64,000 nucleotides of DNA from Candidatus Omnitrophota bacterium (GTDB taxonomy: Bacteria > Omnitrophota > Gorgyraeia > Gygaellales > Profunditerraquicolaceae): the NCBI GenBank assembly GCA_028712375.1, contig JAQTQG010000004.1, forward strand, positions 5,303-69,302. Direction: 5' to 3'. Each line of letters begins with the position of its first letter. Position 1 is the first letter of the stretch. The notes under the pieces were generated by a model, which was not told the origin of the DNA, searched no databases, and saw only the letters and a program-made list of their open reading frames with translations. A program made the translations under genes and the position numbers. Below are positions 22,415-39,060 of the stretch, piece by piece.

Positions 22415-22420
22415 ATCTTT

Positions 22421-22520
22421 GGCGGGTCCTGTCTTGGGTATTATTGCATGGACACACCTCGCGCTAATTGGAATTGCGCGAGTGTTCGCCAGGTGGCGAA
22501 AAATACCCAAGCCACCCGCC
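22421..22520 (+). ncRNA. Candidate structured RNA or regulatory element (three-way-junction-like), unclassified
   Basis: Long closing stem ggcgggtcctgtcttgggtat / atacccaagccacccgcc. It encloses hairpin ctcgcgc-TAATTGGAATT-gcgcgag and hairpin ttcgcc-aggt-ggcgaa. No ORF. Strand is uncertain. Confidence 0.3.
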
Positions 22521-22671
22521 ATTTAATTTTTAAGCTTTACTCAGAATAAGGGCTGGGAGATAGGGGCGAGATGCTATTGTGAGGAGTCTGCCTAGGTTCT
22601 GTGGCGGACGACGCCTGCCCGTCACGGTTTGTGGCGGGAAGCAATCTAATAAAACCTAATAAAGTTTAAGT

Positions 22672-22708
22672 AAAAAAAGCCGTTTCTTTTAAGGAAACGG
22701 CTTTTTTG
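22672..22708 (+). terminator. Rho-independent terminator (looks bidirectional)
   Basis: aaaaaaa-gccgtttc-ttttaa-ggaaacggc-tttttt hairpin flanked by A and T tracts. Confidence 0.5.
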
Positions 22709-22789
22709 TTGTTATTTTGTTAGATTTGACCTTTTTTTGCGTCAATTATTGTAGGAAAAGAATAATAACGCGAGAAAGGAGAGGGCAAA

Positions 22790-23818
22790 ATGAAAAGCGC
22801 AATAAGCGAAGAATATATTGATTTCTTGAATGAAATAAAATCGCGCATTGTTACGGCGCGGGTTCAAGCGATTAGGTCGGTCAATAAAGAGCTTATAAAA
22901 TTATATTGGGATATTGGCAAAACTATTGTACAGAGGCAGAAGAAATATAGGTGGGGAGATGCGGTAGTTGTGAAACTCGCCAACGATTTGAAAGAAGATT
23001 TTAAAACAACATTTGGCTTTTCAACCCAAAATCTCTGGTATATGCGTCAATTTTATCTTGAATACAAAGAAGACTCAATTCTCCAACAGCTTGTTGGAGA
23101 ATTACCGTGGGGGCATAATATACTTATTTTCTCCCGGATCAAAAACAAAATAGAAAGAGAATATTATTTAAAGTCATCGGCACAGATGGGTTGGTCAAGA
23201 AATGTCCTTCTTAATCAGATTAAGGCCGGCGCCTATCATTATCAAAAAAGTATGTTGAAACAGCATAATTTTTCAAAAGCTCTCCCGGTTTATCTTAATG
23301 AGCAGGCGGATGAATCCATCAAAAGCGTTTATAACCTGGATTTTCTGGATATCACAAAATCCGTAGTGGAGCGGGAGCTAGAACGCCGCCTTGTAGAAAA
23401 AATTAAGCGTTTTATGCTCGCATTGGGTAAAGGGTTTTCATTTCTTGGCCACCAATATCGTCTCGCGTTGAGGAATAATGAATATTTTGTTGACCTTTTG
23501 TTTTTTAACCGGGTATTGAAATGCTTGGTGGCGGTTGAGCTTAAGACTGGCAAGTTTGAGCCTGAATATGCCGGGAAGATGGATTTTTACCTGCAGCTAT
23601 TGGATGAACAAATAAAGCTGAAAGATGAGAATCCGTCAATAGGCATTATTCTGTGCGCGGCTAAGGATAATATTGTAGTTGAGTATGCCTTGCGCAGTGT
23701 TAAAAAGCCGATAGGAGTTGCTGAATACTATCTTACTAATAAACTTCCTAAATATTTGGCTGGAAAACTTCCTGATGCCAGCGCATTGAGGCTACCGATA
23801 CGAGAGGAATTAAGATAG
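22790..23818 (+). CDS. DUF1016/YhcG-family PD-(D/E)XK nuclease
   Basis: 342 aa. N-terminal region ELIKLYWDIGKTIV...FGFSTQNLWYMRQFYLEY is typical of DUF1016. C-terminal D...ELK motif (VDLLFFNRVLKCLVAVELKTGKF). Confidence 0.75.
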   Translation: MKSAISEEYIDFLNEIKSRIVTARVQAIRSVNKELIKLYWDIGKTIVQRQKKYRWGDAVVVKLANDLKEDFKTTFGFSTQNLWYMRQFYLEYKEDSILQQLVGELPWGHNILIFSRIKNKIEREYYLKSSAQMGWSRNVLLNQIKAGAYHYQKSMLKQHNFSKALPVYLNEQADESIKSVYNLDFLDITKSVVERELERRLVEKIKRFMLALGKGFSFLGHQYRLALRNNEYFVDLLFFNRVLKCLVAVELKTGKFEPEYAGKMDFYLQLLDEQIKLKDENPSIGIILCAAKDNIVVEYALRSVKKPIGVAEYYLTNKLPKYLAGKLPDASALRLPIREELR

Positions 23819-23838
23819 TTACAGTAGAAGGATAAGCT

Positions 23839-24522
23839 ATGACGAGGCAAAACCTAACTATCCGCGATCTGCCCAGGATTGAGCGCCCGCGGGAGAAACT
23901 TATAAAATACGGAGCAAGCAGGCTTTCAAATATAGAATTGTTAGCGATTCTCTTGCGTACAGGTAAACAAGGGGAGAGCGTTTTAGCTTTTGCTGCTCGC
24001 TTTCTGCGTCTGATCAGCTTAGAAAAAATAACCGATCTATCATTTGAAGAATTTAGAAAGGTCTCAGGCATTGGCCCGGCTAAAGCTTGTGAATTGCTTT
24101 CTTGTGTGGAGCTTGGCCGCAGGATTTTTGAGCATAAAAAGGCCCAAATCTCCCAATTACTTTCCCCGGAGGATGTATTTAACAATCTAAAGGATGTCCG
24201 TTTAAGTAAAAAGGAACACTTTGTGGTTTTCTTCCTGGATTCCCGTAATCAGGAGATTAAGCGTGAGATCATTTCGGTTGGCACGATTAATGCCAGCCTG
24301 GTCCATCCGCGGGAGGTTTTTGAGCCGGCAGTGAAATACTTGGCGGTACAGATCATTCTTGCGCACAACCATCCTTCCGGCACCCTGGAGCCATCCGAGG
24401 ATGATTTGGCGGTGAATAAGCGTTTAACTGAAGCCGGGAAAATCCTGGGGATAGAAGTCCTTGATCATATTATCGTTACTAAAGACAGCTTTATTAGTTT
24501 TAAAGAAAAGGGGCTATTATGA
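23839..24522 (+). CDS. radC: RadC-like JAB-domain protein, copy 2
   Basis: 227 aa. LSNIELLAILLRTG HhH and HNHPSGTLEPSEDD JAMM motif. Paralogous to 2735..3415. Confidence 0.85.
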   Translation: MTRQNLTIRDLPRIERPREKLIKYGASRLSNIELLAILLRTGKQGESVLAFAARFLRLISLEKITDLSFEEFRKVSGIGPAKACELLSCVELGRRIFEHKKAQISQLLSPEDVFNNLKDVRLSKKEHFVVFFLDSRNQEIKREIISVGTINASLVHPREVFEPAVKYLAVQIILAHNHPSGTLEPSEDDLAVNKRLTEAGKILGIEVLDHIIVTKDSFISFKEKGLL

Positions 24523-24845
24523 AGAAAAAAGAATTTGACAAGGCACATAAAAGTATATACAATTGTATATACTTTGAATCGGGGAAAATGCTCTCTGGCC
24601 CAATAAGGTGGAATGCGTTAAAGAATATCCGCTTGAAGCTAACCCGGCGTATATCTTTTGAAGAAATTATACATGCTAGATTATTAGATCTTACTGATCA
24701 TCCGAATCGAAGTGACCAAAAAATCTTGGTATGTGAATATAAGGGATATGTGTGGGTAGTGCCATTTATTTTTGAAGAGGATGGTGTTTTTCTAAAAACC
24801 ATATATCCAAGCCGTAAGTATAAAAAATCTTATGAGAAAGGTTAA
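24519..24845 (+). CDS. brnT: BrnT-family (DUF497) ribonuclease toxin
   Basis: 108 aa. W..KN....ISFEE...D...HPNR...EYKGY.WVV.F..EED..FL.TI.PSRK..K.YE pattern resembles DUF497. Start overlaps the radC stop. Confidence 0.6.
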   Translation: MKKKEFDKAHKSIYNCIYFESGKMLSGPIRWNALKNIRLKLTRRISFEEIIHARLLDLTDHPNRSDQKILVCEYKGYVWVVPFIFEEDGVFLKTIYPSRKYKKSYEKG

Positions 24846-25116
24846 TCTTATGAAAAAGAAAGATGATTTTATTAAAAGTATTAAATTAACTAAAGAAGAG
24901 CAGTGGATAGAAGATCATATGGAAGAATTCGTCCCAATAAAAGGCCCGGAGTATGATTTTATCGTAGCTTCCATAGAGCGCAAGAAGAAGGAAATGGTTT
25001 TGAATATGCGCATTAACCGGGACGATCTGGAAGCGATTAAGCAAAAAGCCCGCAAAGCCGGGATTAAATACCAGACGCTTATCTCCGAGATTCTGCACAG
25101 GGTCGCCCAAAATTAA
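24832..25116 (+). CDS. brnA: BrnA-family antitoxin (ribbon-helix-helix C-terminus)
   Basis: 94 aa. Overlaps the brnT end. C-terminal LEAIKQKARKAGIKYQTLISEILHR matches the BrnA GIPYQ.LI..LH signature. Confidence 0.6.
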   Translation: MRKVNLMKKKDDFIKSIKLTKEEQWIEDHMEEFVPIKGPEYDFIVASIERKKKEMVLNMRINRDDLEAIKQKARKAGIKYQTLISEILHRVAQN

Positions 25117-25240: not shown

Positions 25241-25296
25241 TCTATCTTTTAAAACTATAATCTTCTACGTTTTTCCTGTCATTTTCCCTCCAAAAG

Positions 25297-25400
25297 TGCT
25301 ATAATTTAAGCTTCTTAGGAGAAATTATGTCTTTATTTAAGTTTGCGTTTAATTTATATTTATAGCTATTTTTAACCCAGCCGTATAAGCTGGGTTTTTG
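25297..25400 (+). promoter_or_regulatory. Putative extended -10 promoter (TGcTATAAT), 12-codon leader ORF (MSLFKFAFNLYL, 25327..25365, RBS AGGAG) and intrinsic-terminator-like hairpin (25376..25400). Forms a candidate attenuator immediately upstream of the PLD-SNF2 gene.
   Basis: All elements seen directly in the sequence. Hairpin cccagc-cgtataa-gctggg is followed by ttttt, 19 nt before the ATG at 25419. Confidence 0.35.
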
Positions 25401-25418
25401 TTTAAGAAAGGTAGTTAA

Positions 25419-28400
25419 ATGCATACAGATCTAACATTCTTTACTAATGAGAAAGATTCAACCTTGCTCCAGCGTTTTAAGGTAACTCTAGAGAATAACA
25501 CTCAATTTTTTGATGTCTTAGTTGGTTATTTTCGCACTAGCGGTTTCTTTCATTTGTATAAATCGCTGGAAAAAGTTGAGAAAATTCGTATTCTCGTTGG
25601 AATTAATGTGGACAGGCAGACTCACGACCTCACCGTGAAAGCCAAAGAAGATCAGCTATCGATTAAATTCTCCCACAAAGAAGCTAAGGATACTTTTTCT
25701 GAGCAAGTAGCGCGTGAAATGGAAGAATCTGAGGATAATGTCGATGTTGAACTTGGCGTCCAAAAGTTTATTGAGTTTATTAAATCCGGAAAACTCCAAA
25801 TCCGCGCTTATCCCTCCGGAGATATTCACGCCAAGGTTTATATAATCCGCAAAGATATTAATAAAAGTGAGGATTATGGGCGGGTGATTACTGGTTCAAG
25901 CAATTTTTCATATTCCGGCCTGCATGATAATTTAGAGTTTAACGTCGAACTTAAAGATAGTAGGGATGTTAAATACGCCCTGGAGAAGTTTGAAGAACTC
26001 TGGAAAGACGGAGTTGATATCTCCGAAAAATATGTTGAAACCATTAATGAAAAGACCTGGCTTAATGATACCATTGTGCCTTACGAACTTTATCTGAAAT
26101 TCCTTTATGAATATTTTAAAGAAAAGATCAACGAGGATATGGACTCGATCTACAAAGATAAGCGTTTCCTTCCTGAGGGATTCATGGATCTAGAATATCA
26201 GGATGAAGCGGTCAAGGATGCTTTAACTAAGCTGGGTGATTACGGTGGGGTATTTCTGGCTGATGTTGTCGGTTTAGGTAAAACTTACATTTCTGCTTTA
26301 CTTGCTCAGCAGTTAGAGGGCTATACTTTGGTTATTTGTCCGCCGGTACTTATGGATTACTGGCACGATACGTTTAGAGACTTTGGCGTTCGTGGTTTTG
26401 AAGTTGAATCTTTAGGGAAATTAGACAAACTTATTGAGAATGGGGTTGAGAAATACCGGAACATCTTCATCGACGAAGCGCATCGCTTTAGAAACGAAAC
26501 CAATCAGACTTATGAGAAGCTTAAACAAATTTGTTGGGGAAAAAGGATAATCTTGGTGTCCGCAACTCCATTGAATAACACGCCGTTTGATATCTTGAGT
26601 CAGATTAAACTTTTTCAGAAAGGCCATAACAGTACCATCCCTAATGTTCGCGATCTTGATAAGTTCTTTGCTGGATTGCAGAAGAAACTAAAATCCGTAG
26701 ACCGTAAGGAAATTAAGAATTATCTCAAATTGGTCAAAGAGAACTCTTTGATTATCCGGGAAAATATCCTTAAATATCTTATGGTAAGAAGGACCAGGAC
26801 TGAAGTTTTGAAATATTTTAAGAAAGACCTACAACAGCAGAGGTTGAAATTCCCGGAAGTTGCCGAACCAAGACGAGTCTATTATCAGTTTGACGCGCAG
26901 CTTGATAAAATCTTTATGCGTACTATTGAGTTGATTAAAAATTTTAAATACACCCGCTATATGCCGCTGTTATATTTAAAGAACCCTGATCCACAGGAAG
27001 TATCCGGTCAGCGCAACCTCGGGCGTTTTATGCGTATATTGCTAGTCAAGCGATTGGAAAGCAGTTTCTACGCTTTTAAGATGACCCTGGATAGATTTAT
27101 TCATTCTTACGATGTCTTCATCAAAATGCTTGATAAAGGTACAATTTATATCAGCAAGAAACACAGTGAGAAGATCTACGAAGCCTTAGAAAATGATGAC
27201 ATAGACAGGATCATGGAATTGGTTGAGCAAGATAAAGTGCAGAAATACGAAGCCAATGATTTTGGTAAACCGTTTAGAGAGAATCTAAAAGATGATTTGG
27301 ATATTCTTCTTGAGATGAAGAAGCTGTGGGATGGTGTTCAAGCTGATCCCAAGATTGATCAATTTAAATCAATTCTTACCAAGGATAAGATACTTAAAGA
27401 AAATAAGCTGATAATTTTCACTGAATCCAAGGAAACTGCCGAGTATTTAGATAGGAATTTAAGGCAAGAATTCGGTGATAAAGTTATATCTTATTCCAGT
27501 AAATCCAGCGCATCGGTCCGTGAAACGATAATTGATAACTACGATCCGAAGCACAAGAACCAAAAAGACGATATCCGTGTTCTTATCACTACCGATATCT
27601 TGGCCGAAGGCGTTAATTTGCACCGCGCCAATGTAGTTATTAATTATGATATCCCCTGGAATCCTACTCGAGTTTTGCAACGTGTAGGCCGCGTTAACCG
27701 TGTTGATACCAAATTTGATGATATCTACGTCTATAACTTCTTTCCCTCGGTTCAGGGCAACAATGAAATCAAGCTGGAAGAAGCGGCCATAGCTAAGATT
27801 CAGGCTTTTCATGATACGCTTGGCGAAGACGCACAATATCTAACCGAAGGCGAGGAGTATACTTCTCATGAGTTGTTCAATCGTTTGAATTCCCAAAAAC
27901 TCTTGGCAGAAGGTGGGGAGGAAGATGAAGATTCAGAATTGAAATATCTTTCTGAGATCAGGGATATCCGGGATAACAATGCTGCTTTATATGAAAAGAT
28001 AAAACGCCTGCCCAAGAAAGCCCGCAGTGCCAAAGTGTATCCTGATTTTAAGGAAGCAGTGGTTACGTTCTTTAAGAAAGGCAAATTGCGAAAGATTTAT
28101 ATTGCTGACGCGAAGGAAGCTAAAGAACTCGATTTCTTCAATGCCGCCGTAATTTTAAAATCTGAAAATACGAAAAAGAAAGAAAAGCTTGCCGCCGATT
28201 TTTACAAGCTTTTGGCTCAAAACAAGGATCAGTTCAAGCTTGCCACTACCGAAGAAGCGCGTGAATTCAAGCAGGAAGGCGGCCGCAGCAATGAGATAAC
28301 GCTTGTTAGAACAATTAAAGCCATTAAGAAGTTTTCTGGGTTTACGGATGAGGACGAAGAATACTTGGAAAGAGTGTTAAAAGCCTTAGAAGAGGGAGCT

Positions 28401-28586
28401 TTACCTAAACAGACTAGTAAAACTCTAGTTAAACAGATAAAAGGGGAAAGCAATCCTTTGAAAATTCTTTTCAAGTTTAAGCAGGGGATCCCGCATAATT
28501 TCTTCTCTGAAGGATTTGTAGATAATCCATATTATAACACGGCTCCCAGAGAAGTTATTTTGTCAGAATATTTGATTAATAAATAA
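25419..28586 (+). CDS. Fusion of an N-terminal PLD-family (HKD) nuclease domain with an SNF2/SF2 helicase (DEAH box)
   Basis: 1055 aa. HKD motif DIHAKVYII...ITGSSNFS. Walker A LADVVGLGKTYI. DEAH box IFIDEAHRF. Helicase-C motifs ITTDILAEGVNLH...NYDIPWNPTRVLQRVGRVNR. Confidence 0.85.
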   Translation: MHTDLTFFTNEKDSTLLQRFKVTLENNTQFFDVLVGYFRTSGFFHLYKSLEKVEKIRILVGINVDRQTHDLTVKAKEDQLSIKFSHKEAKDTFSEQVAREMEESEDNVDVELGVQKFIEFIKSGKLQIRAYPSGDIHAKVYIIRKDINKSEDYGRVITGSSNFSYSGLHDNLEFNVELKDSRDVKYALEKFEELWKDGVDISEKYVETINEKTWLNDTIVPYELYLKFLYEYFKEKINEDMDSIYKDKRFLPEGFMDLEYQDEAVKDALTKLGDYGGVFLADVVGLGKTYISALLAQQLEGYTLVICPPVLMDYWHDTFRDFGVRGFEVESLGKLDKLIENGVEKYRNIFIDEAHRFRNETNQTYEKLKQICWGKRIILVSATPLNNTPFDILSQIKLFQKGHNSTIPNVRDLDKFFAGLQKKLKSVDRKEIKNYLKLVKENSLIIRENILKYLMVRRTRTEVLKYFKKDLQQQRLKFPEVAEPRRVYYQFDAQLDKIFMRTIELIKNFKYTRYMPLLYLKNPDPQEVSGQRNLGRFMRILLVKRLESSFYAFKMTLDRFIHSYDVFIKMLDKGTIYISKKHSEKIYEALENDDIDRIMELVEQDKVQKYEANDFGKPFRENLKDDLDILLEMKKLWDGVQADPKIDQFKSILTKDKILKENKLIIFTESKETAEYLDRNLRQEFGDKVISYSSKSSASVRETIIDNYDPKHKNQKDDIRVLITTDILAEGVNLHRANVVINYDIPWNPTRVLQRVGRVNRVDTKFDDIYVYNFFPSVQGNNEIKLEEAAIAKIQAFHDTLGEDAQYLTEGEEYTSHELFNRLNSQKLLAEGGEEDEDSELKYLSEIRDIRDNNAALYEKIKRLPKKARSAKVYPDFKEAVVTFFKKGKLRKIYIADAKEAKELDFFNAAVILKSENTKKKEKLAADFYKLLAQNKDQFKLATTEEAREFKQEGGRSNEITLVRTIKAIKKFSGFTDEDEEYLERVLKALEEGALPKQTSKTLVKQIKGESNPLKILFKFKQGIPHNFFSEGFVDNPYYNTAPREVILSEYLINK

Positions 28587-28587
28587 G

Positions 28588-32028: not shown

Positions 32029-32072
32029 ATTGGAGAAGCCTAGGGCATAGTTTGTAATAAAGGAGGAAGTTG

Positions 32073-32930: not shown

Positions 32931-33468
32931 AAGCAATTATGATTTAAAAAATTTATTCAAAAAATATGGGGGTTGGGTTAGAATATTCAAGTCTTTTGAT
33001 TTCATTTTTGCTTTCATCTTTGCTATGTTTGTTTTTTGTTATATGACATGGCCTGATGCTACTGGTCGGGGTTATTTCGCCAAAGAATTGGCCTCAGTTT
33101 TATTAAACATCTCTGCCAGTTTATTCGGAATATTATTTGCAGCCTTCGCAATTATACTTTCGCTATCTGATGAAAAATTCATAAAATTCCTAAGAAAGCA
33201 TAATGTGTTGGATAAGATTCTATTTCCATTTTGGTTTATTTCTTTTTTGTACATAATTAATATAGCTCTCGATATTTTAATAAAATTCTTTCCTGATAAT
33301 ATTGCCAAATATTTTACTACTATTTCTATTTTACTATTCTTTTGGGCTATTTTTGGTACGGCATATCTTATTAGTGATACAGTTTCTTTCGGGATAAGAA
33401 GGGCAGATTATTTAGAATTTGAGAAAGAAATAGGGGAATTAACGAAAGATACAAAGCAGACGCGATAA
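32923..33468 (+). CDS. Hypothetical multi-pass membrane protein
   Basis: 181 aa. About 4 hydrophobic segments. Overlaps the upstream gene by 8 nt. Confidence 0.4.
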   Translation: MGESNYDLKNLFKKYGGWVRIFKSFDFIFAFIFAMFVFCYMTWPDATGRGYFAKELASVLLNISASLFGILFAAFAIILSLSDEKFIKFLRKHNVLDKILFPFWFISFLYIINIALDILIKFFPDNIAKYFTTISILLFFWAIFGTAYLISDTVSFGIRRADYLEFEKEIGELTKDTKQTR

Positions 33469-33522: not shown

Positions 33523-34140
33523 ATGGACGAAAAATTACAGAATATCACAGTATTAGAGAATATGCATAAGTTATTTCTTGAAGCTTTGCGTCATCGTGAA
33601 CAAGAAATTTTTCATTATCTTGCCATACTCGGCCCAGCACTTGTTGGTTTTGGATGGATTTTATATTATCGAGAAGGGCGTGCTGTTGAATTCGCTTGTG
33701 TGACAATAGTAGTTTTAGCACTTTTATTGCTAGGAGCGATTTATTCTTTGGCTTTAGGATACAACTATCGGTATATTGTTCTGGAATTAGCCAAATTGGA
33801 AGCGGTGTTAAAGATTAAGAATGCTATGCTTGTTGGTTGGCCTAGATCGAGAGAAGAATTTCTCTTGCGGTACAGGTTTTTACGCTATATCCCATGGTGC
33901 ACACCTCCCGAGATAATTAAAGTCTTTTGGTGGGCTTTCTTAGTAGCGATAATTTTAGTAATGATGATAGCTTATAAACTTAATCATAGTTATAATAATC
34001 TGATGCTTGGATTTGGGTTACTTTGTTTAGTACTAGGTTCTTTTCTGTTTCCAATCTATTTCGGTCGTAAGTTACGAAAAAATTGTAAACAAGAACCAGA
34101 AGCTTGGATAGAAGAAAGTACAAAAAGCAAGATTGCATGA
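33523..34140 (+). CDS. Hypothetical multi-pass membrane protein
   Basis: 205 aa with ~4 predicted TM segments. Basic C-terminus. Confidence 0.4.
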   Translation: MDEKLQNITVLENMHKLFLEALRHREQEIFHYLAILGPALVGFGWILYYREGRAVEFACVTIVVLALLLLGAIYSLALGYNYRYIVLELAKLEAVLKIKNAMLVGWPRSREEFLLRYRFLRYIPWCTPPEIIKVFWWAFLVAIILVMMIAYKLNHSYNNLMLGFGLLCLVLGSFLFPIYFGRKLRKNCKQEPEAWIEESTKSKIA

Positions 34141-34209
34141 GATTTTCGATAGACAAAATAAGTAAAATTAGCATTTTAGTCTAAGTAGTTATCGTAGAGA
34201 GCGCTTATT

Positions 34210-34680
34210 ATGGGACGATGGGAACGAAAAGACGTGCCTCATAAAGGATGGATTTGCGTTGATTACTATGATTTACATGCAAATGGAGAAGTAGGGTATG
34301 CTACTTGCGAGATGTGTAACAATGAAAGAATTAGATATATTCATATAATGCGTCATGAAAGTTATGCTAAAGAGTTAAAAGTTGGTTGTATATGTGCAGA
34401 AAAGATGGCTGACGACTATGTGGGGCCTAAAAGTCGGGAAAAACTACTCAAAAATCGATCAATTCGCCGCAAGAATTGGTTAAAAAGAAATTGGAGACAA
34501 TCTTCGCGGGGGAATGATTATTTGAATGTAGACGGGCACAATGTTACTATTTTTCCAGATAAAAACAGGGCTGAGCATTGGAAATTTAAGATAGACGATG
34601 ATTTTAGTTTAAAAAGCTATGTCGAAAAGAATCAGGCGAAGATAGCGGCTTTTGATGCGTTAATGAAGAAGCGAGAATGA
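34210..34680 (+). CDS. Hypothetical Cys-containing protein (possible zinc-binding)
   Basis: 156 aa. C...CEMC...CIC spacing. No family recognised. Confidence 0.35.
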   Translation: MGRWERKDVPHKGWICVDYYDLHANGEVGYATCEMCNNERIRYIHIMRHESYAKELKVGCICAEKMADDYVGPKSREKLLKNRSIRRKNWLKRNWRQSSRGNDYLNVDGHNVTIFPDKNRAEHWKFKIDDDFSLKSYVEKNQAKIAAFDALMKKRE

Positions 34681-34747
34681 TTGCTCACCAAAAGGGAGTA
34701 TCCCTTTTTCATATACAACTCAAAGGGTATATGTTAAGTGGGGCTTT

Positions 34748-34826
34748 GGGCGGCTGGTGGAATGGCAGACACACAAGCCTTGAAAGCTTGTGGACTTAGG
34801 TCCGTGAGGGTTCGACTCCCTCGCCG
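34748..34826 (+). tRNA. tRNA-Ser (anticodon TGA)-like gene with a non-complementary 3' acceptor strand. Possibly truncated, a pseudo-tRNA, or an att junction.
   Basis: 5' acceptor gggcggc, then tg. D-arm gtg/gaatggcaga/cac. Anticodon arm caagc-cttgaaa-gcttg (TGA at positions 34-36). Long variable arm ggac-tta-gtcc. T-arm gaggg-ttcgact-ccctc. The following 7 nt are gccggaa, not the expected gccgccc. Confidence 0.55.
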
Positions 34827-34884
34827 GAAATTATTTGAAAGATTAACATAGATTTTTCAATTGATTCAAGCAGGAGGCATAGGA

Positions 34885-36153
34885 ATGGCCGAACAAACTA
34901 TCATTTGTCCTTTTTGTAAGAAAGAAATTCCGTTAACTCAGGCTATCACTCAGAAAATTGGAGCAGACCTGCGTAAGGAGATGGAGGAAGATTTCGCTAA
35001 GCGTGACAGTGAATTGTCAGGCCGAGAAAATACGCTGGTTGCTAAAGAGCAGGCAGTAGCTAAGTCGGCGCAAGAGGTAGATAAGAAAATTGAGGATGAG
35101 GTCGCTCGAAAACTTGTCCTTGAGAGAGAAACAATACTTAAAGAGGCAAAAAAGAAAGCAGAGGAAGAAAATTCCTTGCAACTCAAGGTTCTTCAGGAAG
35201 ATTTGCATTCGAAAGATAAGCAGCTTCAGGAAACGCAGAAAAACGAACTTCTGCTTAGAAAACAAAAGTCTGATTTGGAAGCAAGAGAAAGAAATGTAGA
35301 TTTGGAAGTTGCCAGAAAGATTGATTCTGAACGGGCTAATATTTTCTCCGAAGCGTCCCAGAAGGTTGCTGAAGATTTTCAGTTAAAGGATAAGGATAAA
35401 GACAAGAAAATAGCGGATTTGAGAAGCCAGATAGAAATACTTAATAGAAAGATGGAGCAAGGATCGCAACAGGCCCAGGGAGAGGTTTTAGAGATTGAAT
35501 TGGAGCAGATGCTTAAGTCCGCTTTTCCTTATGATGTTATCGAGGCGGTGCCTAAAGGGATTAAGGGCGCAGATGTTTTGCAGAAAGTTAATAATCCTAT
35601 GGGGCAGTATTGCGGAACAATCATTTGGGAGTCTAAGCGGACAAAAGGCTGGAACGACGATTGGATAGACAAGCTAAAAGATGACCAAAGGGAAGTTAAA
35701 GCGGATATCGCGGTTTTAATGAGTATCACGCTTCCTAAAGAGATTAATGGTTTTGCTCAAGCAAAAGGTGTCTGGGTGACAAGTTATCCTTTGGCTATTG
35801 CGCTTGCCGTGGCATTGCGAGGAAGTCTTGTGGAAGTTGCCAATGCCAAGCAATCTGCGGTCGGTAAGGCCGAGAAGATGGAAGCGATTTATAACTATCT
35901 TTCCGGCACAGAATTTAAGCAAAAGGTCGAGGCTATTGTAGAGGCCTTTGCAACCATGCATTCTGATTTGGCTAAAGAAAAAGCTGCTATGGAGAAGCTT
36001 TGGGGAAAACGAGAGCAGCAGATTAAGAAGGTTATGCTCAATACGGCTAGGATGTATGGAGATATGCAAGGTATAATTGGTGCGTCTTTACCGGAGATTA
36101 AGAGCTTAGAGTTAAAATCTTTAGCTGATGAAACAGAAGAAAAAGCAGAATAA
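34885..36153 (+). CDS. DUF2130-like protein (N-terminal zinc ribbon, central coiled coil, conserved C-terminal domain)
   Basis: ATG at 34885 after AGGAGG. CPFCKKEIPL zinc ribbon. Long K/E-rich coiled coil. C-terminal IIWESKRTKGWNDDWIDKLKDD block recalled as DUF2130-like. Confidence 0.5.
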   Translation: MAEQTIICPFCKKEIPLTQAITQKIGADLRKEMEEDFAKRDSELSGRENTLVAKEQAVAKSAQEVDKKIEDEVARKLVLERETILKEAKKKAEEENSLQLKVLQEDLHSKDKQLQETQKNELLLRKQKSDLEARERNVDLEVARKIDSERANIFSEASQKVAEDFQLKDKDKDKKIADLRSQIEILNRKMEQGSQQAQGEVLEIELEQMLKSAFPYDVIEAVPKGIKGADVLQKVNNPMGQYCGTIIWESKRTKGWNDDWIDKLKDDQREVKADIAVLMSITLPKEINGFAQAKGVWVTSYPLAIALAVALRGSLVEVANAKQSAVGKAEKMEAIYNYLSGTEFKQKVEAIVEAFATMHSDLAKEKAAMEKLWGKREQQIKKVMLNTARMYGDMQGIIGASLPEIKSLELKSLADETEEKAE

Positions 36154-36538
36154 AATTAATTGCTTAAAACGGAAGGATATACCTGTGATCACGTTAAAGG
36201 TATATGGAGAAACACGTTGTTCAACAAAAGAAAATTGGCAGAAAGTCATTTGTTTTGTTTCTTATTGTTGTTTCTCTAAGCATAGACAGATTGTTGAGAA
36301 CTCGTTTCAGGATTATCTAAAGTTAGATTTAGATGACATGAGGGAAAATCATTCCGAGCTTTTTTTAGAACCGCACAATATTGGGAGAGCGATATTGCTC
36401 TATCATTATTTTAGGGAAAGACACCGTTTCTTTAAAGATAATCATTGGGAATATGAGAATCCTGAATCAATACCTATTCGTGAGCCCGATACTGAAGGGG
36501 AAGATTATAAGCTTTGGGTTTGTGAAGATGAAAATTGA
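36128..36538 (+). CDS. Hypothetical protein
   Basis: 136-aa ORF overlapping the previous gene's end. No recognisable motif. Confidence 0.3.
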   Translation: MKQKKKQNKINCLKRKDIPVITLKVYGETRCSTKENWQKVICFVSYCCFSKHRQIVENSFQDYLKLDLDDMRENHSELFLEPHNIGRAILLYHYFRERHRFFKDNHWEYENPESIPIREPDTEGEDYKLWVCEDEN

Positions 36539-36585: not shown

Positions 36586-37071
36586 ATGAAAAGAAACGCA
36601 ATTCCCGACAGTTTAAGGCAACTTTTATTTCAAGAGGCTAATTTTCAGTGTGCTTATTGTGGGCATCGTGATGGCTTAAATTTAACCTGTCATCATATTA
36701 AATCTAGCGGGGAAAAGGGAGAAACTCATTACAATAATTTGATAGCTTTATGCTATAACTGCCATAATAGGATACATGAGTCCAAAACAATAAACGATAG
36801 CGATATTAGAAGAATAAAACGACACTTAGTCCATAATTTTTTAACTCAATCTGGAGTAAACGCATTAAAGATAGCATATAATGATATAGACGGTTTTGTT
36901 TATGCCGTGCCTTCTTTATTGGATCATCTTGAGGAAAGGGGTTTAATAGAATCTGAGAGCATAGGGTATTCAGCAAAGATAAAAATAAGTACCCCGGCCA
37001 TTAATAATGTTCGTTATAGAATTACTGATGAAGGTAAAAGATTGTATGAAATTTGGCTTAAATCAAAATAA
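36586..37071 (+). CDS. HNH endonuclease
   Basis: CAYCGH...CHHI...NLIALCYNCHNRIH HNH/zinc motif. Confidence 0.75.
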   Translation: MKRNAIPDSLRQLLFQEANFQCAYCGHRDGLNLTCHHIKSSGEKGETHYNNLIALCYNCHNRIHESKTINDSDIRRIKRHLVHNFLTQSGVNALKIAYNDIDGFVYAVPSLLDHLEERGLIESESIGYSAKIKISTPAINNVRYRITDEGKRLYEIWLKSK

Positions 37072-37135
37072 ATTAATAGTTGTTTTGTATCTAACTGGTA
37101 GAAAGCATATTCGTAGGTTTTAGTAGACGAGAACC

Positions 37136-37507
37136 ATGCAAATTAAAATTACCATAAATAAACTTACAGTTTTCGCGGAACTCAATGCCTCTAAAACCGC
37201 GCAATTGATTTGGGATAGTCTACCGCTTGAGGCTGATGCGGAGCTTTGGGGCGATGAAGTTTATTTTTATATTAAACCCAAGACGGGTATTGAAAAAGAA
37301 TACGCGCGCCAGGTGGTTGAGGTTGGTGATGTTGCCTATTGGCCGCAAGGGCCTTGTATGTGCTTATTTTTTGGCATGACTCCCAATAGCCGGGATGGTA
37401 AGATTATGCCGGCGAGCGCGGTAAATGTATTTGGTAAGTTAAAAACTGATCCTTTAGTGTTAAAGCAGGTTAAAGAGGGGCAGCGGATTAAGGTTGAGCA
37501 AGCCTAA
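37136..37507 (+). CDS. Cyclophilin-like-fold protein (DUF3830-like)
   Basis: 123 aa. The pattern KITINKLTVFAELNASKTAQ...VAYWPQGPCMCLFFG resembles the uncharacterised cyclophilin-like family. Confidence 0.45.
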   Translation: MQIKITINKLTVFAELNASKTAQLIWDSLPLEADAELWGDEVYFYIKPKTGIEKEYARQVVEVGDVAYWPQGPCMCLFFGMTPNSRDGKIMPASAVNVFGKLKTDPLVLKQVKEGQRIKVEQA

Positions 37508-37592
37508 GTAAATATATAAAACGGCCTGTCCATATTTGTTCTGTAGTTAAAAGAACTGCAAGTAGCTAAGTAATCGTTTATTATCTTATCCT

Positions 37593-38915
37593 ATGAAACT
37601 TTTCTCCCACCAAACAATCGCCAATGATCAGCTTCCGGAAAATCTTGATATCAACGATGAGTTTGAAAAGGCGTTTGAGCTGATGGAGCATACCAAAGAA
37701 TGCCTTTTTATCACCGGTAAAGCGGGCACCGGAAAATCTACGCTTTTAAAATATTTTAAAGCTAATACCGGAAAGAATATCATTGTCTTGGCTCCCACGG
37801 GGGTTGCCGCGGTGAATGTCGGCGGCCAGACAATTCATTCCTTCTTCAGGTTTCCTCCTAAAATCATTCAAAAGGAGACGATAAAACGCCTGCGGGATAG
37901 GAGCTTATTCGAAAACCTGGATATGATTATTATTGATGAGGTCTCCATGGTGCGTTCAGACCTGATGGATGGGATAGATTACGCGTTACGCCTTAACCGC
38001 GGCCGGATGAAAGTGCCTTTTGGCGGAGTGCAGATGGTATTTTTCGGAGACCTTTTTCAATTGTCTCCGGTAGTAGAACATGAATCCAGAAAACTTTTAG
38101 GAGAGCGGTATTTAAGCCCTTATTTTTTTAGCGCTAAAGTATTTGACGATTGCCACCTGAGGACCATTGAACTATCGACGATTTACCGGCAAAAAGATAG
38201 CGCGTTTATGGAGCTTTTAAACCGGGTGAGGAATAAAGAGCATACCGGAAAGGACTTGGCGATATTAAATAAGAAGGTGCAAAAAGATGTTACCGTTTCC
38301 CGGAAAGATTCAACCGTGATTCTGACGACGACTAACAGCCTGGCCAATGCGATTAACCAGGAGCGTTTATCCAAGCTGCCCGGTAAAGAGATGGTGTATA
38401 AAGCTAATGCTACCGGTAAATTTGAAGAGTCGGCATATCCTACGGAATCATCGCTCAGGCTTAAAAAAGGCGCGCAGGTAATTTTAATCAAAAATGATCC
38501 TGATAAAAGATGGGTCAACGGTACGCTGGCCAAGGTTGCCGCTTTATCGCCAGATTCAATCGTCGTGGAGATCGATGGTTTTACCTATGATGTCCCGGTG
38601 GTAAAGTGGGAGAAAGTTGAATATAGCTATAATGAAGATGAAGATAAAATAGAAGATGAGGTGGTGGGGGAGTTCGCGCAGTATCCCTTAAAGCTGGCCT
38701 GGGCAATTACTATTCATAAAAGCCAGGGGCAGACTTTTGATAAGGTGATTATTGACCTTGGATATGGTGCTTTTACCCACGGCCAGTTATATGTTGCTCT
38801 TAGCAGATGCACTTGCCTGGACGGTATAAAGCTTAAACGCCCGGTGGCCCACAGCGATATCATCTTTGATGAGCGTATTTATGAATTTAACCAGCGGTTT
38901 GCCAGCTTATTTTAA
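37593..38915 (+). CDS. Pif1/RecD-like SF1 DNA helicase
   Basis: Walker A ITGKAGTGKSTLLK. Motif II IIIDEVSMV. C-terminal ITIHKSQGQTFD typical of Pif1/RecD-like helicases. Confidence 0.8.
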   Translation: MKLFSHQTIANDQLPENLDINDEFEKAFELMEHTKECLFITGKAGTGKSTLLKYFKANTGKNIIVLAPTGVAAVNVGGQTIHSFFRFPPKIIQKETIKRLRDRSLFENLDMIIIDEVSMVRSDLMDGIDYALRLNRGRMKVPFGGVQMVFFGDLFQLSPVVEHESRKLLGERYLSPYFFSAKVFDDCHLRTIELSTIYRQKDSAFMELLNRVRNKEHTGKDLAILNKKVQKDVTVSRKDSTVILTTTNSLANAINQERLSKLPGKEMVYKANATGKFEESAYPTESSLRLKKGAQVILIKNDPDKRWVNGTLAKVAALSPDSIVVEIDGFTYDVPVVKWEKVEYSYNEDEDKIEDEVVGEFAQYPLKLAWAITIHKSQGQTFDKVIIDLGYGAFTHGQLYVALSRCTCLDGIKLKRPVAHSDIIFDERIYEFNQRFASLF

Positions 38916-38930
38916 AATAAGCTGGTTTAA
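38902..38930 (+). terminator. Terminator hairpin overlapping the helicase stop codon
   Basis: ccagcttatttt-aaaataagctgg inverted repeat followed by ttt. Confidence 0.4.
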
Positions 38931-39060
38931 TCTCCGGCTGCAAAAAGCCATTTTTATTTAATAAATATTTCTGAGAATTTTCCGTATTTGTTCTATAATA
39001 CTATGTAGCATAAGTATCTATATGAACTGTCTGTTATGGCCGCATAGTTGCTGAAAGGTT

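What the first reader, a model, noticed from the sequence alone, without database searches (positions are those of the whole stretch)
22415..39060. About 16.5 kb accessory/defence island inserted after nrdR. It has no recognisable integrase or transposase.
The nrdR terminator region is followed by DUF1016 nuclease, RadC, BrnTA, the PLD-SNF2/MTase cassette, unknown genes, a tRNA-Ser-like gene, DUF2130, HNH endonuclease, a cyclophilin-like protein and a Pif1-like helicase. After that, envelope/core-looking genes resume at ~39.6 kb. Parts of the block (about 30.5-34.7 kb) are visibly more AT-rich than the purine operon. Boundaries and the mobilisation mechanism are unclear. A tRNA-associated island without an integrase suggests an old or decayed insertion, or one mobilised in trans.
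Basis: partly seen in the sequence, partly recalled or inferred. Interest (0 to 1): 0.6.

Follow-up and report, generated by a model that had tools for sequence, protein, structure and literature searches.

The report
Defence-gene hotspot after nrdR
In this uncultivated Omnitrophota bacterium, the normally tiny gap between two housekeeping genes (nrdR and a nuclease-domain gene) has grown into a 28-kb patchwork of anti-phage genes and other accessory genes; this kind of integrase-free "defence hotspot" is known from other bacteria, and the tRNA-like gene inside it is cargo, not the insertion site.

Summary
The interpretation needs three corrections.

1. Right boundary. In 125 of 130 related Omnitrophota loci, nrdR is followed within 300 bp (median 17 bp) by the homologue of window gene 50596-51009 (BFN domain). 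The non-ancestral stretch is therefore 22.4-50.6 kb. The "core-looking" genes from 39.6 kb on are also newcomers at this site.

2. Number of insertions. The block is a mosaic at a lineage-specific hotspot, not one insertion. Loci with NrdR at least 91% identical are occupied 18 to 3; those at 75-91% are empty 100 to 2. Relatives carry other cargo at the same place: two Type III and two Type II R-M systems, HEC-06, Schlafen/AbiO-like ATPases and RecQ. They share some anchors with the window: RadC, a BrnT-position gene, a 113-nt promoter-terminator unit, LOG and UDG.

3. The tRNA. No relative has a tRNA here, no repeat of its 3' end exists, its acceptor stem is defective, and its neighbour is a phage-type gene.

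The PLD-SNF2/methylase cassette occurs elsewhere at 71-95% identity. There it lies beside large serine recombinases or on a contig with a conjugation coupling-protein gene. This is a new member of a known kind, and interest is modest.

The parts
21947..22414 (+). nrdR, the conserved left anchor of the hotspot
   Evidence: Pfam Zn_ribbon_NrdR + ATP-cone. The upstream order purine gene, rpiB, glyA, dCMP deaminase, nrdR is conserved in essentially all 160 related loci.
22420..22526 (.). About 100-nt GC-rich palindromic element (termini GCGGGTCCTG...CCACCCGC). It is a resident of the nrdR 3' spacer, not island cargo.
   Evidence: It folds at -50 kcal/mol. Family members sit in the nrdR-BFN spacer of empty-site relatives (L011, L007, L033, L098, L090, L095, L013) and at unrelated loci.
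22673..22707 (+). Strong intrinsic terminator. The left edge of the variable DNA lies between about 22443 and here.
   Evidence: 16-bp stem plus T-run. Nucleotide similarity to relatives L017, L011, L033 and L024 stops at 22431-22442.
22790..23818 (+). DUF1016/YhcG PD-(D/E)XK nuclease (PADLOC candidate system PDC-S02)
   Evidence: Pfam YhcG_C 1e-60 and DUF1016_N 1e-44. PADLOC PDC-S02 1.8e-134. Absent between nrdR and RadC in L089 and L008; L005 has an ORF6N gene in this slot.
23839..24522 (+). Accessory RadC-like JAB protein; a second radC copy is at 2735-3415
   Evidence: Pfam RadC 5e-42. 77-87% identical copies sit at the same position after nrdR in L005, L008 and L089. GC3 is 0.47, like the host.
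24519..25116 (+). Two overlapping small genes in toxin-antitoxin order: an unknown 108-aa protein, then a CopG/BrnA-like antitoxin
   Evidence: CopG_antitoxin 31 bits (cut-off 28). BrnA is sub-threshold. The 108-aa ORF hits only phrog_38250 and is 83% identical to the L089 gene at the same position.
25276..25403 (+). Mini transcription unit: extended -10 promoter, AGGAG, a 12-codon ORF and an intrinsic terminator
   Evidence: Promoter 25276-25305 and terminator 25374-25396. About 82% identical copies lie directly upstream of unrelated Type III R-M cassettes in L005 and L089. Only 3 copies occur in 2 Mb of related loci.
25419..28586 (+). PLD(HKD) nuclease fused to a SNF2 helicase; the predicted restriction/translocase subunit
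   Evidence: Pfam PLDc_2, SNF2-rel_dom, Helicase_C. PADLOC C3a139 'HKD+Snf2' 7e-47. At least 8000 homologues across phyla (the scoring cap), best 95%.
28588..32028 (+). Eco57I/MmeI-type N6-adenine methylase with a TaqI_C specificity domain; the predicted modification/recognition subunit
   Evidence: Pfam Eco57I 2e-28, N6_Mtase, MmeI_Mtase, TaqI_C. PADLOC REase_MTase_IIG 2e-150. 87% nt identity to L165 up to 30255, then divergence, which looks like a specificity-domain swap.
32070..33468 (+). RexA/RexB-like pair: a cytoplasmic 286-aa protein and an overlapping 181-aa protein with four hydrophobic segments
   Evidence: Homologues carry precomputed PF15931/DUF4747. The pair is co-conserved in 7 other contigs, next to hsdS in 4 of them. 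The AF2 model (pLDDT 70) has RdgC and lambda RexA as top PDB folds. The four transmembrane segments are read by eye from the sequence.
33523..34140 (+). Unknown 205-aa membrane protein
   Evidence: No significant family hit. GC3 0.29.
34210..34680 (+). Phage-type Cys-rich 156-aa protein
   Evidence: Hits only viral sequences: 41% to two IMG/VR contigs and 32-46% to four phage genomes. The IMG/VR homologue lies 35 bp from a tRNA-Gln.
34746..34829 (+). Degenerate tRNA-Ser(UGA)-like gene; cargo, probably phage-derived
   Evidence: ARAGORN. Rfam 37.2 bits, matching model positions 4-67 only. In the register that keeps the T-arm, only 4 of 7 acceptor pairs form (sequence). No relative has a tRNA at this site.
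34861..36153 (+). DUF2130 protein (coiled coil plus predicted PD-(D/E)XK nuclease); the likely true start is the ATG at 34885
   Evidence: Pfam DUF2130 4e-70. 89% aa and 87% nt identity to L165, where it also lies downstream of the PLD-SNF2/methylase cassette. PD-(D/E)XK assignment from PMC3424549.
36128..37071 (+). Unknown 136-aa ORF and a small HNH endonuclease, both AT-rich
   Evidence: HNH 4e-9. PHROG HNH families. GC 0.33-0.34.
37136..38915 (+). Cyclophilin-like protein and a Pif1/Dda-like SF1B helicase, with host-like composition
   Evidence: Cyclophil_like 1e-37 and PIF1 3.5e-29. phrog_325 Dda-like helicase 3.5e-89. GC3 0.43-0.49.
39061..43866 (+). Probable lipoprotein plus an epimerase, YaiO barrel, HEAT-repeat protein and GT2 synthase (an exopolysaccharide-type module). 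Also not ancestral at this site.
   Evidence: Pfam. Absent between nrdR and LOG in L004 and L089. Only the lipoprotein has a 55% homologue, in L102, about 9 kb after nrdR.
44024..50452 (+). Older, clade-shared filling of the same gap: LOG, DUF1622, choloylglycine-type hydrolase, holin_4_2-family protein, nitroreductase, OmpA, PD-(D/E)XK, unknown, UDG, S4
   Evidence: Pfam. Subsets at 76-94% identity lie between nrdR and BFN in L004, L081, L082, L089, L101, L002, L012, L085 and L093.
50596..51009 (+). BFN-domain gene, the conserved right anchor
   Evidence: Pfam BFN_dom 5.5e-38. It follows nrdR within 300 bp in 125 of 130 loci.

Best explanation
The finding is the left 60% of a lineage-specific gene-accretion hotspot. 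It is not one inserted island.

Ancestral state. In Omnitrophota, nrdR and a BFN-domain gene are adjacent and probably co-transcribed. In the genus-level clade of this genome that gap has opened. It now holds:
- an older right-hand filling shared by clade members (LOG to UDG/S4, 44.0-50.5 kb);
- an exopolysaccharide-type module (39.1-43.9 kb);
- next to nrdR, a fast-turnover stack of anti-phage modules (22.7-38.9 kb): a YhcG nuclease, RadC plus a toxin-antitoxin pair, a PLD-SNF2 nuclease-translocase with its Eco57I-type methylase (an R-M-like system), a RexAB-like abortive-infection pair, a phage fragment carrying a degenerate tRNA, a DUF2130 nuclease, an HNH nuclease and a Dda/Pif1 helicase.

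How the modules work (inferred from domain content, not shown). The methylase marks self DNA at a site read by its TaqI_C domain. The PLD-SNF2 protein translocates on and cuts unmarked DNA. The RexA-like sensor would open the 4-TM RexB-like partner to abort infection.

How the DNA got there (inferred from comparisons). Modules first enter genomes of this group on elements with their own recombinase: a large serine recombinase, or a conjugative element. They are then moved, swapped and trimmed by homologous or illegitimate recombination between the conserved anchors (nrdR, RadC/BrnT-position gene, the 113-nt unit, the 5' half of the methylase gene, DUF2130, LOG, UDG, BFN). This leaves a block with no recombinase, no flanking repeats and no tRNA target.
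For: Empty site. 125 of 130 loci that contain both genes have an nrdR-BFN spacer under 300 bp, median 17 bp.

Clade specificity. With NrdR at least 91% identical, 18 loci are occupied and 3 are empty. At 75-91%, 2 are occupied and 100 are empty.

Different cargo at the same place:
- Type III R-M of two families (L005, L089), Type II R-M of two families (L004, L082), HEC-06 (L101) and an AbiO/Nhi/PDC-S41-like ATPase (L102).
- RecQ, ORF6N, a Gp49/HTH toxin-antitoxin pair, MazG-like, a Schlafen-type helicase, Fic and MORN proteins.

Shared anchors. RadC is 77-87% identical and the BrnT-position gene 83%, at the same position in L005, L008 and L089. LOG, the hydrolase, the nitroreductase and UDG are 76-88% identical in L004, L081, L082 and L085. 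The 113-nt unit precedes three unrelated R-M cassettes.

Mosaic structure. L165 matches the window at 87% nt over 25418-30255 and 34861-36165, but carries NYN, PLD and Gabija-like genes where the window has the AT-rich 30.3-34.86 kb stretch.

Mobility of the cassette elsewhere:
- 92% homologue beside a 652-aa serine recombinase downstream of serS;
- 71% homologue beside a 534-aa serine recombinase plus DUF2924, in an Omnitrophota defence island;
- 93% homologue on a contig with a TraG-like coupling protein;
- 91% homologue after gpsA.

Composition. GC3 is 0.26-0.41 for most island genes against 0.45-0.54 for core genes. RadC, the cyclophilin-like gene and Pif1, and everything from 39.7 kb, are host-like.

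No recombinase and no repeats.

Precedent. Core-gene-flanked defence hotspots without detectable mobile elements are described in E. coli and P. aeruginosa (PMC10121019, PMC10250203).
Against: - No strain-level relative was available. The best comparators differ by 3-8% in NrdR and 7-15% in GlyA, so individual gain and loss events cannot be ordered or dated.
- Many related contigs end inside the hotspot, so 'occupied' is often inferred from the absence of BFN within the available 0.6-10 kb.
- The recombination route is inferred from shared anchors. No recombination breakpoint was shown at nucleotide resolution except against L165, whose own genomic position is unknown.
- The window appears to come from a metagenome-assembled genome, so internal joins cannot be checked against reads.
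- No function of any module has been tested.
Confidence: 0.68

Rival explanations
1. One integrative element, carrying a large serine recombinase or riding on a conjugative element, delivered most of 25.4-36.2 kb (PLD-SNF2 to DUF2130) in a single site-specific event. The recombinase gene was later deleted. The rest of the block accreted separately.
For: Homologous cassettes lie immediately next to large serine recombinases or on a contig with a T4SS coupling protein. L165 shows that PLD-SNF2, the methylase and DUF2130 travel together at 87% nt identity.
Against: The window has no recombinase remnant and no attachment-site-like repeats. Upstream of the cassette lies the locus-resident 113-nt unit, which is shared with relatives that have other cassettes. 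This fits replacement by homologous exchange better than fresh site-specific insertion. The HTH gene that precedes the cassette in L165 and in the P0005 contig is missing.
Confidence: 0.2
2. An old tRNA-Ser-targeting genomic island whose integrase has decayed.
For: A tRNA-Ser-like gene is present. Its last three acceptor pairs are broken, as could happen at an old recombination junction (sequence).
Against: No relative has a tRNA after nrdR, so this was not a resident target. Accessory genes lie on both sides of it. No repeat of its 3' end exists within 29 kb. There is no space for an integrase pseudogene, since the gaps are at most 375 bp. Its neighbour is a phage-type gene that is also tRNA-adjacent in a viral contig.
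Confidence: 0.04
3. The block is ancestral and was lost from other lineages, or it is an assembly chimera of a metagenome bin.
For: The source looks like a metagenome-assembled genome (P0123, 100% identical, is annotated 'MAG: Candidatus Omnitrophica'). Host-like composition from 39 kb on.
Against: More than 118 diverse loci share a spacer of about 17 bp, which would require very many precise independent deletions. The order nrdR ... RadC/BrnT-position gene ... LOG ... UDG ... BFN is reproduced piecewise in independent assemblies: L089, L004, L085 and L002. The stretch PLD-SNF2 to DUF2130 is reproduced in L165.
Confidence: 0.05

Closest known systems
Core-gene-flanked defence hotspots without detectable mobile elements (E. 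coli hotspot #37; P. aeruginosa core defence hotspots cDHS1/2; PMC10121019, PMC10250203)
   Same: A fixed position between conserved housekeeping genes. Highly variable sets of R-M, abortive-infection and toxin-antitoxin systems among relatives. Many instances have no identifiable means of mobilisation.
   Different: The phylum is uncultivated (Omnitrophota). The flanks are nrdR and a BFN-domain gene that are otherwise about 17 bp apart. The hotspot exists only in one genus-level clade. It also holds non-defence modules (exopolysaccharide-type genes, LOG, a hydrolase).
SNF2-helicase/nuclease plus methylase R-M-like systems: Hma / Type-1 BREX-related systems (PMC11232893, PMC12839542), class 1 DISARM (DrmD, DrmMI, DrmC), Type ISP enzymes
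   Same: A SNF2-family ATPase joined to a nuclease and paired with an N6-adenine methylase. PADLOC gives partial hits to DrmD, DrmMI, HmaA, BrxH and PglX.
   Different: The nuclease is an N-terminal PLD/HKD domain, not a C-terminal PD-(D/E)XK domain. The methylase is Eco57I/MmeI/TaqI_C type, not DUF1156 type. There is no DUF499/BrxC ATPase and no DrmA or DrmB. It is a two-gene cassette, three genes with NYN or DUF1016 in relatives. PADLOC knows the family only as the candidate 'C3a139 HKD+Snf2'. No close solved structure exists.
Lambda RexAB and the mycobacteriophage Sbash gp30/31 and Gordonia phage CarolAnn gp44/43 exclusion pairs (PMC6426596, PMC7542560)
   Same: A cytoplasmic DUF4747-type protein followed by a small membrane protein with four hydrophobic segments. 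The predicted fold of the first matches RexA and RdgC.
   Different: No sequence similarity to lambda RexA is detectable. The pair is chromosomal, next to R-M genes, rather than in a prophage immunity region. It is untested.
tRNA-gene-targeting genomic islands and prophages
   Same: A tRNA-like gene lies within accessory DNA.
   Different: There is no integrase, no 3'-end direct repeat and no resident tRNA at this site in relatives. The tRNA-like gene is internal and defective.

Membership tests
Defence hotspot between core genes | The same pair of conserved flanking genes in related genomes, adjacent when the site is empty | tested here: met
   nrdR and the BFN gene are under 300 bp apart in 125 of 130 loci, median 17 bp.
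Defence hotspot between core genes | Different cargo, enriched in defence systems, at the same site in different genomes | tested here: met
   Type II R-M (two families), Type III R-M (two families), HEC-06, AbiO/PDC-S41-like, toxin-antitoxin pairs and PLD-SNF2/methylase.
Defence hotspot between core genes | Presence or absence polymorphism within a species | not testable with these tools
   No same-species genome was found. Exact-protein look-ups for window proteins returned nothing. The closest NrdR is 97% identical and the closest GlyA 93%.
tRNA-integrated genomic island | An integrase (tyrosine or serine recombinase) next to the tRNA | tested here: not met
   No recombinase family hit in any ORF. 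The gaps around the tRNA total 180 bp.
tRNA-integrated genomic island | A direct repeat of the tRNA 3' part at the far end of the island | tested here: not met
   No repeat involving 34780-34835 within 21900-51100.
tRNA-integrated genomic island | The tRNA is a resident gene at the empty site of relatives | tested here: not met
   No tRNA directly follows nrdR in any of 34 scanned related loci that contain nrdR. The only tRNAs found are tRNA-Gln genes about 6-7 kb downstream in two distant loci, L066 and L072.
Canonical tRNA-Ser | Seven-pair acceptor stem together with a regular T-arm, plus a long variable arm and a UGA anticodon | tested here: not met
   The anticodon, variable arm and T-arm are present. 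The acceptor stem pairs at 4 of 7 positions in the Rfam register. ARAGORN reaches 6 of 7 only by shifting and breaking the T-arm.
Restriction-modification-like system (PLD-SNF2 plus Eco57I-type methylase) | Nuclease, ATP-dependent translocase, methylase catalytic domain and target-recognition domain encoded together | tested here: met
   PLDc_2, SNF2/Helicase_C, Eco57I/N6_Mtase and TaqI_C. The gene pair is conserved in L163, L165, L166, L167 and the P0003 and P0005 contigs.
Restriction-modification-like system (PLD-SNF2 plus Eco57I-type methylase) | Methylation-dependent self/non-self discrimination and phage restriction | not testable with these tools
   Needs methylome data and phage or plasmid challenge.
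Class 1 DISARM | DrmA (DUF1998-associated helicase) and DrmB present together with DrmD, DrmMI and DrmC | tested here: not met
   Only partial DrmD and DrmMI hits. No DrmB hit, and only a weak partial DrmA hit on the PLD-SNF2 helicase core; no separate DrmA-like gene.
Hma / Type-1 BREX-related system | A DUF499 (BrxC-like) ATPase, a DUF1156 methylase and a SNF2 helicase with a C-terminal PD-(D/E)XK domain | tested here: not met
   No ATPase gene. The methylase is Eco57I type. The nuclease is an N-terminal PLD domain. Family definition from PMC12839542.
RexAB-like abortive infection pair | A RexA-type (DUF4747 / RdgC-like fold) cytoplasmic protein | tested here: inconclusive
   Precomputed PF15931 on 15 of 16 homologues. 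The local Pfam copy gives no hit even for those homologues. hhalign against lambda RexA is negative. Foldseek top hits are RdgC (4e-5) and RexA 8twq (9e-4), but the TM-score is about 0.3 and the model pLDDT is 70.
RexAB-like abortive infection pair | An adjacent, co-conserved small membrane protein with four transmembrane helices | tested here: met
   The overlapping 181-aa ORF has four hydrophobic segments (sequence). It is co-conserved at 61-75% identity in all 7 contigs that carry a u286 homologue.
BrnTA toxin-antitoxin | A BrnT (DUF497) toxin and a BrnA antitoxin | tested here: not met
   The toxin-position ORF hits no BrnT model. BrnA hits are below the cut-offs (22.6 against 26.1 bits in Pfam; 16.9 against 60 in NCBIfam). 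CopG_antitoxin passes.

The most novel reading that the evidence does not exclude
The nrdR-BFN gap of this Omnitrophota clade may be a recombinase-independent cassette-exchange platform. In this reading the conserved 113-nt unit (promoter, 12-codon ORF, terminator) serves two roles. It is the fixed expression and attenuation signal for whichever R-M cassette lands behind it, and it is the left homology arm for swapping cassettes. The 5' half of the methylase gene and DUF2130 would then bracket a second, nested slot. That slot currently holds a RexAB-like pair and a phage-derived tRNA-like RNA, and this RNA might itself act in defence or counter-defence.
Probability: 0.12. Interest if true: 0.7.

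Novelty: new member of a known kind. Interest (0 to 1): 0.4.

Why it matters
Defence hotspots have been mapped almost only in cultivated Proteobacteria.

- This example shows the same architecture in an uncultivated phylum. It also shows the birth of a hotspot: two genes that are about 17 bp apart, and probably co-transcribed, in over a hundred relatives are separated by up to 28 kb in one clade.
- It supplies natural swap series that could guide experiments on an untested but very widespread PLD-SNF2/Eco57I-type R-M-like family (at least 8000 homologues) and on chromosomal RexAB-like pairs. In these series the same anchors carry different R-M types, and the same cassette occurs with NYN, with DUF1016 or with no middle gene.
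- For annotation, it is a caution that a tRNA-like gene inside an island need not be its insertion site, and that host-like genes next to an island need not be the ancestral neighbours.

Tried and rejected
- Exact-protein look-ups for window NrdR, BFN, RadC and for P0123 found nothing. No same-strain context could be obtained.
- Direct repeats and inverted repeats across 22-51 kb gave only chance-level matches inside coding regions. I rejected attachment sites and transposon ends.
- An exact search for the tRNA-like sequence in viral contigs gave no match.
- DUF2130 has no relatives in viral contigs. Plasmid hits are only about 41% identical and carry no functional annotation.
- Rfam at a permissive threshold over 22.3-39.7 kb found only the tRNA and spurious terminator-like hits. 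No known RNA family covers the post-nrdR hairpin element or the 113-nt unit.
- PDB sequence searches for the PLD-SNF2 protein and the methylase returned only generic SNF2/DEAD and TaqI methylase domains.
- hhalign of the u286 family against lambda RexA was negative. The local Pfam copy did not reproduce the DUF4747 annotation.
- I tested whether L102 continues into the epimerase cluster after its u193 homologue. The 150 bp available do not match, so this is inconclusive.
- I considered DUF1016 as a displaced middle gene of the PLD-SNF2/methylase cassette, as in L167. The two DUF1016 proteins are only 26% identical, so the idea is unsupported.

Full report
**1. What is at 22415-39060**

All non-nested ORFs of the window lie on the + strand (62 of 62).
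- NrdR, 21947-22414.
- A DUF1016/YhcG PD-(D/E)XK nuclease, 22790-23818. PADLOC files it as candidate system PDC-S02 (1.8e-134).
- A RadC-like JAB protein, 23839-24522.
- Two overlapping small genes in toxin-antitoxin order, 24519-25116. Only the second has a passing hit (CopG_antitoxin). The BrnA scores are below threshold and the first ORF hits no BrnT model, so 'BrnTA' is not verified.
- A PLD(HKD)-SNF2 fusion, 25419-28586. PADLOC calls it 'C3a139 HKD+Snf2'.
- An Eco57I/MmeI-type methylase with a TaqI_C domain, 28588-32028, starting 2 nt after the helicase gene's stop codon.
- Four ORFs without a Pfam hit, 32070-34680.
- A tRNA-Ser(UGA)-like gene, 34746-34829.
- DUF2130, 34861-36153.
- An unknown 136-aa ORF, an HNH nuclease, a cyclophilin-like protein and a Pif1/Dda-like helicase, up to 38915.

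No ORF hits a recombinase or transposase model in Pfam, PHROGs, NCBIfam or PADLOC. The only non-coding stretches are 375, 302, 180 and 145 bp, so there is no room for a decayed recombinase gene. The AT-rich stretch is real. GC is 0.32-0.36 at 30.5-34.5 kb against 0.44-0.49 in the purine/glyA region. GC3 is 0.27-0.34 against 0.45-0.54. Low GC is not exclusive to the block, because the conserved 60-63 kb region is also 0.35-0.39.

**2. Relatives define the ancestral site**

NrdR was used to fetch 80 genome loci and 80 metagenome loci with 10-kb flanks. Nearly all the genome loci are Omnitrophota or MAGs binned as 'uncultured Planctomycetales'. The best NrdR identity is 96-97% and the best GlyA identity 93%, so no same-species genome is available.

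The upstream order (purine gene, rpiB, glyA, dCMP deaminase, nrdR) is conserved throughout. It is the homologue of window ORF 50596-51009 (BFN domain). That gene is followed by the CCA-adding enzyme, an AsmA-like protein, a PALP enzyme and a UPF0047 protein, which matches window 51-57 kb.

In 125 of 130 loci that contain both genes, the nrdR-BFN spacer is under 300 bp, with a median of 17 bp. The non-ancestral stretch in the window is therefore about 22.44-50.59 kb, or 28 kb. The left edge follows from nucleotide similarity to L017, L011, L033 and L024, which stops at 22431-22442. On the right, similarity to many relatives resumes at 50579-50590.

**3. A clade-specific hotspot**

After removing duplicate loci:

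| NrdR identity | Occupied | Empty |
|---|---|---|
| at least 91% | 18 | 3 |
| 75-91% | 2 | 100 |

In the lowest bin (under 75%), six distant loci lack a BFN hit. In three of them the CCA-enzyme gene directly follows nrdR, so that is a different gene order rather than an insertion.

The cargo differs from genome to genome:

| Locus | Genes after nrdR |
|---|---|
| L005 | ORF6N, RadC, HTH, RecQ, Gp49/HTH toxin-antitoxin pair, Type III R-M |
| L089 | RadC, BrnT-position gene, RecQ, Type III R-M of another family, LOG |
| L008 | RadC, HTH, RecQ |
| L003, L059 | HTH, RecQ |
| L004 | Type II R-M, LOG, nitroreductase, hydrolase, then UDG |
| L082, L086 | another Type II R-M |
| L101 | Dam-like and N4/N6-type methylases (by sequence inspection), HEC-06, holin-family protein, Fic |
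| L102 (same organism as L017) | MazG-like, AbiO/PDC-S41-like ATPase, Schlafen-type helicase, MORN protein |
| L001 | MORN protein |
| L002, L085 | UDG (+/- S4) |
| L094 | surface-protein genes |

Several genes recur as anchors:
- RadC, 77-87% identical, and the BrnT-position gene, 83%, next to nrdR.
- LOG, the hydrolase, the holin-family protein and the nitroreductase, 76-94%, in the middle.
- UDG, S4 and w49136 next to BFN.

The region therefore has a nested structure. An older, partly shared filling lies on the right (44.0-50.5 kb in the window). A high-turnover defence stack lies next to nrdR. Between them sits a five-gene exopolysaccharide-type module (39.1-43.9 kb) that L004 and L089 lack at this place. 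It is not the edge of the inserted DNA.

**4.

(a) The segment from the PLD-SNF2 gene to position 30255, and the DUF2130 gene, match contig L165 at 87% nt identity (95% and 89% aa). Between these two segments L165 carries a NYN gene, a diverged methylase C-terminus, a PLD protein and a Gabija-like ATPase/UvrD pair. The window has instead the methylase C-terminus, the four unknown ORFs and the tRNA-like gene.

(b) A 113-nt unit lies at 25276-25403. It consists of an extended -10 promoter, AGGAG, a 12-codon ORF and an intrinsic terminator. It recurs at about 82% identity directly upstream of the two unrelated Type III cassettes of L005 and L089, and nowhere else in 2 Mb of related loci. It therefore belongs to the locus, not to the cassette. 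It marks a junction behind which cassettes differ.

(c) RadC, the cyclophilin-like gene, Pif1 and to a lesser degree DUF2130 have near host-like codon composition. The DUF1016 gene, the toxin-position ORF, PLD-SNF2, the methylase, the unknown ORFs and HNH do not.

(d) DUF1016 is absent between nrdR and RadC in L089 and L008, and ORF6N takes its place in L005.

**5. How the modules move**

The PLD-SNF2 protein has at least 8000 homologues across bacterial and archaeal phyla (8000 is the scoring cap). Close homologues lie in unrelated contexts:

| Identity | Context |
|---|---|
| 91% | after gpsA (L163) |
| 93% | contig with a TraG-like coupling protein, an Imm_superinfect gene and an HTH_17 gene |
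| 92% | downstream of serS, directly beside a divergent 652-aa large serine recombinase and an HTH gene; the methylase abuts the helicase gene as in the window |
| 71% | Omnitrophota defence island (DarTG, TIR proteins), again beside a 534-aa serine recombinase plus DUF2924 (L166) |

The cassette is thus cargo of recombinase-bearing elements elsewhere, and the window copy has lost or never had that part. No direct or inverted repeats bound the block or its parts.

My inference is that modules enter on such elements and are then shuffled between related genomes by recombination in shared anchors. Core-flanked hotspots in which most instances show no mobile element are documented for E. coli (hotspot #37, 68% without a detectable mobile element) and for P. 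aeruginosa (PMC10121019, PMC10250203).

**6. The tRNA-like gene**

Rfam aligns only model positions 4-67, at 37 bits. In that register the T-arm, the anticodon arm (UGA) and the long variable arm are regular. The acceptor stem pairs only at CGGC/GCCG, and the top three pairs are G-G, G-A and G-A (sequence). ARAGORN reaches 6 of 7 acceptor pairs only by a shifted register that damages the T-arm. A canonical tRNA-Ser is therefore not encoded.

None of the 34 related loci scanned for tRNAs that contain nrdR has a tRNA after nrdR. The upstream gene (156 aa, Cys-rich) has homologues only in viral contigs and phage genomes. In the IMG/VR contigs it lies 35 bp from a tRNA-Gln. The simplest reading is a fragment of phage DNA that carries a decaying phage tRNA. 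It is cargo, not an insertion target.

**7. The unknown ORFs**

The 286-aa protein has 16 homologues, and 15 of them carry a precomputed DUF4747 annotation. In all seven fetched contexts it is followed by an overlapping gene of about 180 aa that is the homologue of window 32923-33468. That gene encodes four hydrophobic segments. In four contexts the pair sits directly after a Type I hsdS gene. In two it sits near another PLD-SNF2/DUF1016/methylase cassette.

DUF4747 is the motif reported in lambda RexA and in the exclusion proteins of phages Sbash and CarolAnn, each of which is paired with a 4-TM protein (PMC6426596, PMC7542560). My own tests gave mixed results:
- The local Pfam copy gives no hit, even for the annotated homologues.
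- A profile comparison with lambda RexA is negative.
- An AlphaFold model (pLDDT 70) finds RdgC (E 4e-5) and lambda RexA 8twq (E 9e-4, probability 0.96-0.98) as its top PDB matches out of 350,000 chains, at low TM-scores.

I call the pair RexAB-like by architecture and probable fold. Membership is not proven.

**8. Comparison with known systems, and verdict**

- The PLD-SNF2/methylase cassette works like an R-M system: nuclease, translocase, methylase and recognition domain are encoded together.
- It is not DISARM, because DrmA and DrmB are missing.
- It is not Hma or a Type-1 BREX-related system, because there is no DUF499 ATPase, the methylase is of another type and so is the nuclease (PMC11232893, PMC12839542).
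- It belongs to a catalogued but, as far as I could find, uncharacterised family.

The locus as a whole is a new member of the known class of core-flanked defence hotspots.

Caveats:
- There are no strain-level comparators.
- Many related contigs end inside the hotspot.
- The source is probably a metagenome-assembled genome. P0123 is 100% identical to the window protein and is annotated 'MAG: Candidatus Omnitrophica', from an 83-kb contig.
- All functions are inferred.

Noticed in passing
window 22420-22526; also L011, L007, L033, L098, L090, L095 and L013 (nrdR-BFN spacers) and L013:19885-19979, L019:16062-16128, L032:604-681, L037:10606-10688, L139:1973-2093: A family of 70-120-nt GC-rich palindromic elements with conserved termini (GCGGG[T/G]CCTG ... 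CACCCGC) and variable interiors, dispersed in intergenic regions of Omnitrophota genomes. They resemble REP or MITE elements. One copy sits directly after nrdR in the window and in several empty-site relatives. No Rfam family matches.
   Followed up: partly
window 25276-25403; L005:14951-15088; L089:13847-13959: A conserved 113-nt unit: TGcTATAAT promoter, AGGAG, a 12-codon ORF (MSLFKFAFNLYL in the window, MSLSEFAITLHL in L005; the frame is broken by a 12-nt deletion in L089) and an intrinsic terminator. In each case it lies immediately upstream of a different R-M cassette. It may be an attenuator or leader, or a small RNA.
   Followed up: partly
window 1-64000: All 62 non-nested ORFs of at least 80 aa are on the + strand and GC skew is positive throughout. 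Gene-strand bias is extreme over 64 kb, including the inserted DNA.
   Followed up: no
window 2735-3415: A second RadC-type gene, 36-38% identical to the island-type RadC of relatives and 61% identical to a gene in L141. It is presumably the housekeeping copy, which makes the island RadC an accessory paralogue.
   Followed up: no
window 28588-32028 compared with L165:5146-8514 and L163:13949-16381: The methylase genes are 81-87% nt identical in the 5' 1.7-2.3 kb and then diverge sharply in the catalytic-C-terminal/TaqI_C part. The pattern suggests swapping of specificity domains. Relatives carry a NYN gene (L163, L165, P0003 contig) or a DUF1016 gene (L167) between the helicase and methylase genes. 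The window and the P0005 contig have none.
   Followed up: partly
L003, L005, L008, L059, L089 (for example L089:11940-13775): A full-length RecQ helicase (DEAD, Helicase_C, RecQ_Zn_bind, RQC, HRDC) lies inside the hotspot of five close relatives and is nearly identical among them. The window has no RecQ at this place.
   Followed up: no
L166:1-23216 (Omnitrophota contig, Logan SRR12676968): A large defence island: a DUF4011 helicase, DarT-Macro, ThsB-TIR, TIR_2, a serine recombinase plus DUF2924, PLD-SNF2/methylase, Dam, DUF7226, UvrD-like and DEAD helicases.
   Followed up: no
window 39675-43866: Epimerase/dehydratase, YaiO-type outer-membrane barrel, HEAT-repeat protein and GT2 synthase. 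This is an exopolysaccharide-type four-gene module sitting inside the variable gap. Its distribution in relatives was not resolved.
   Followed up: partly
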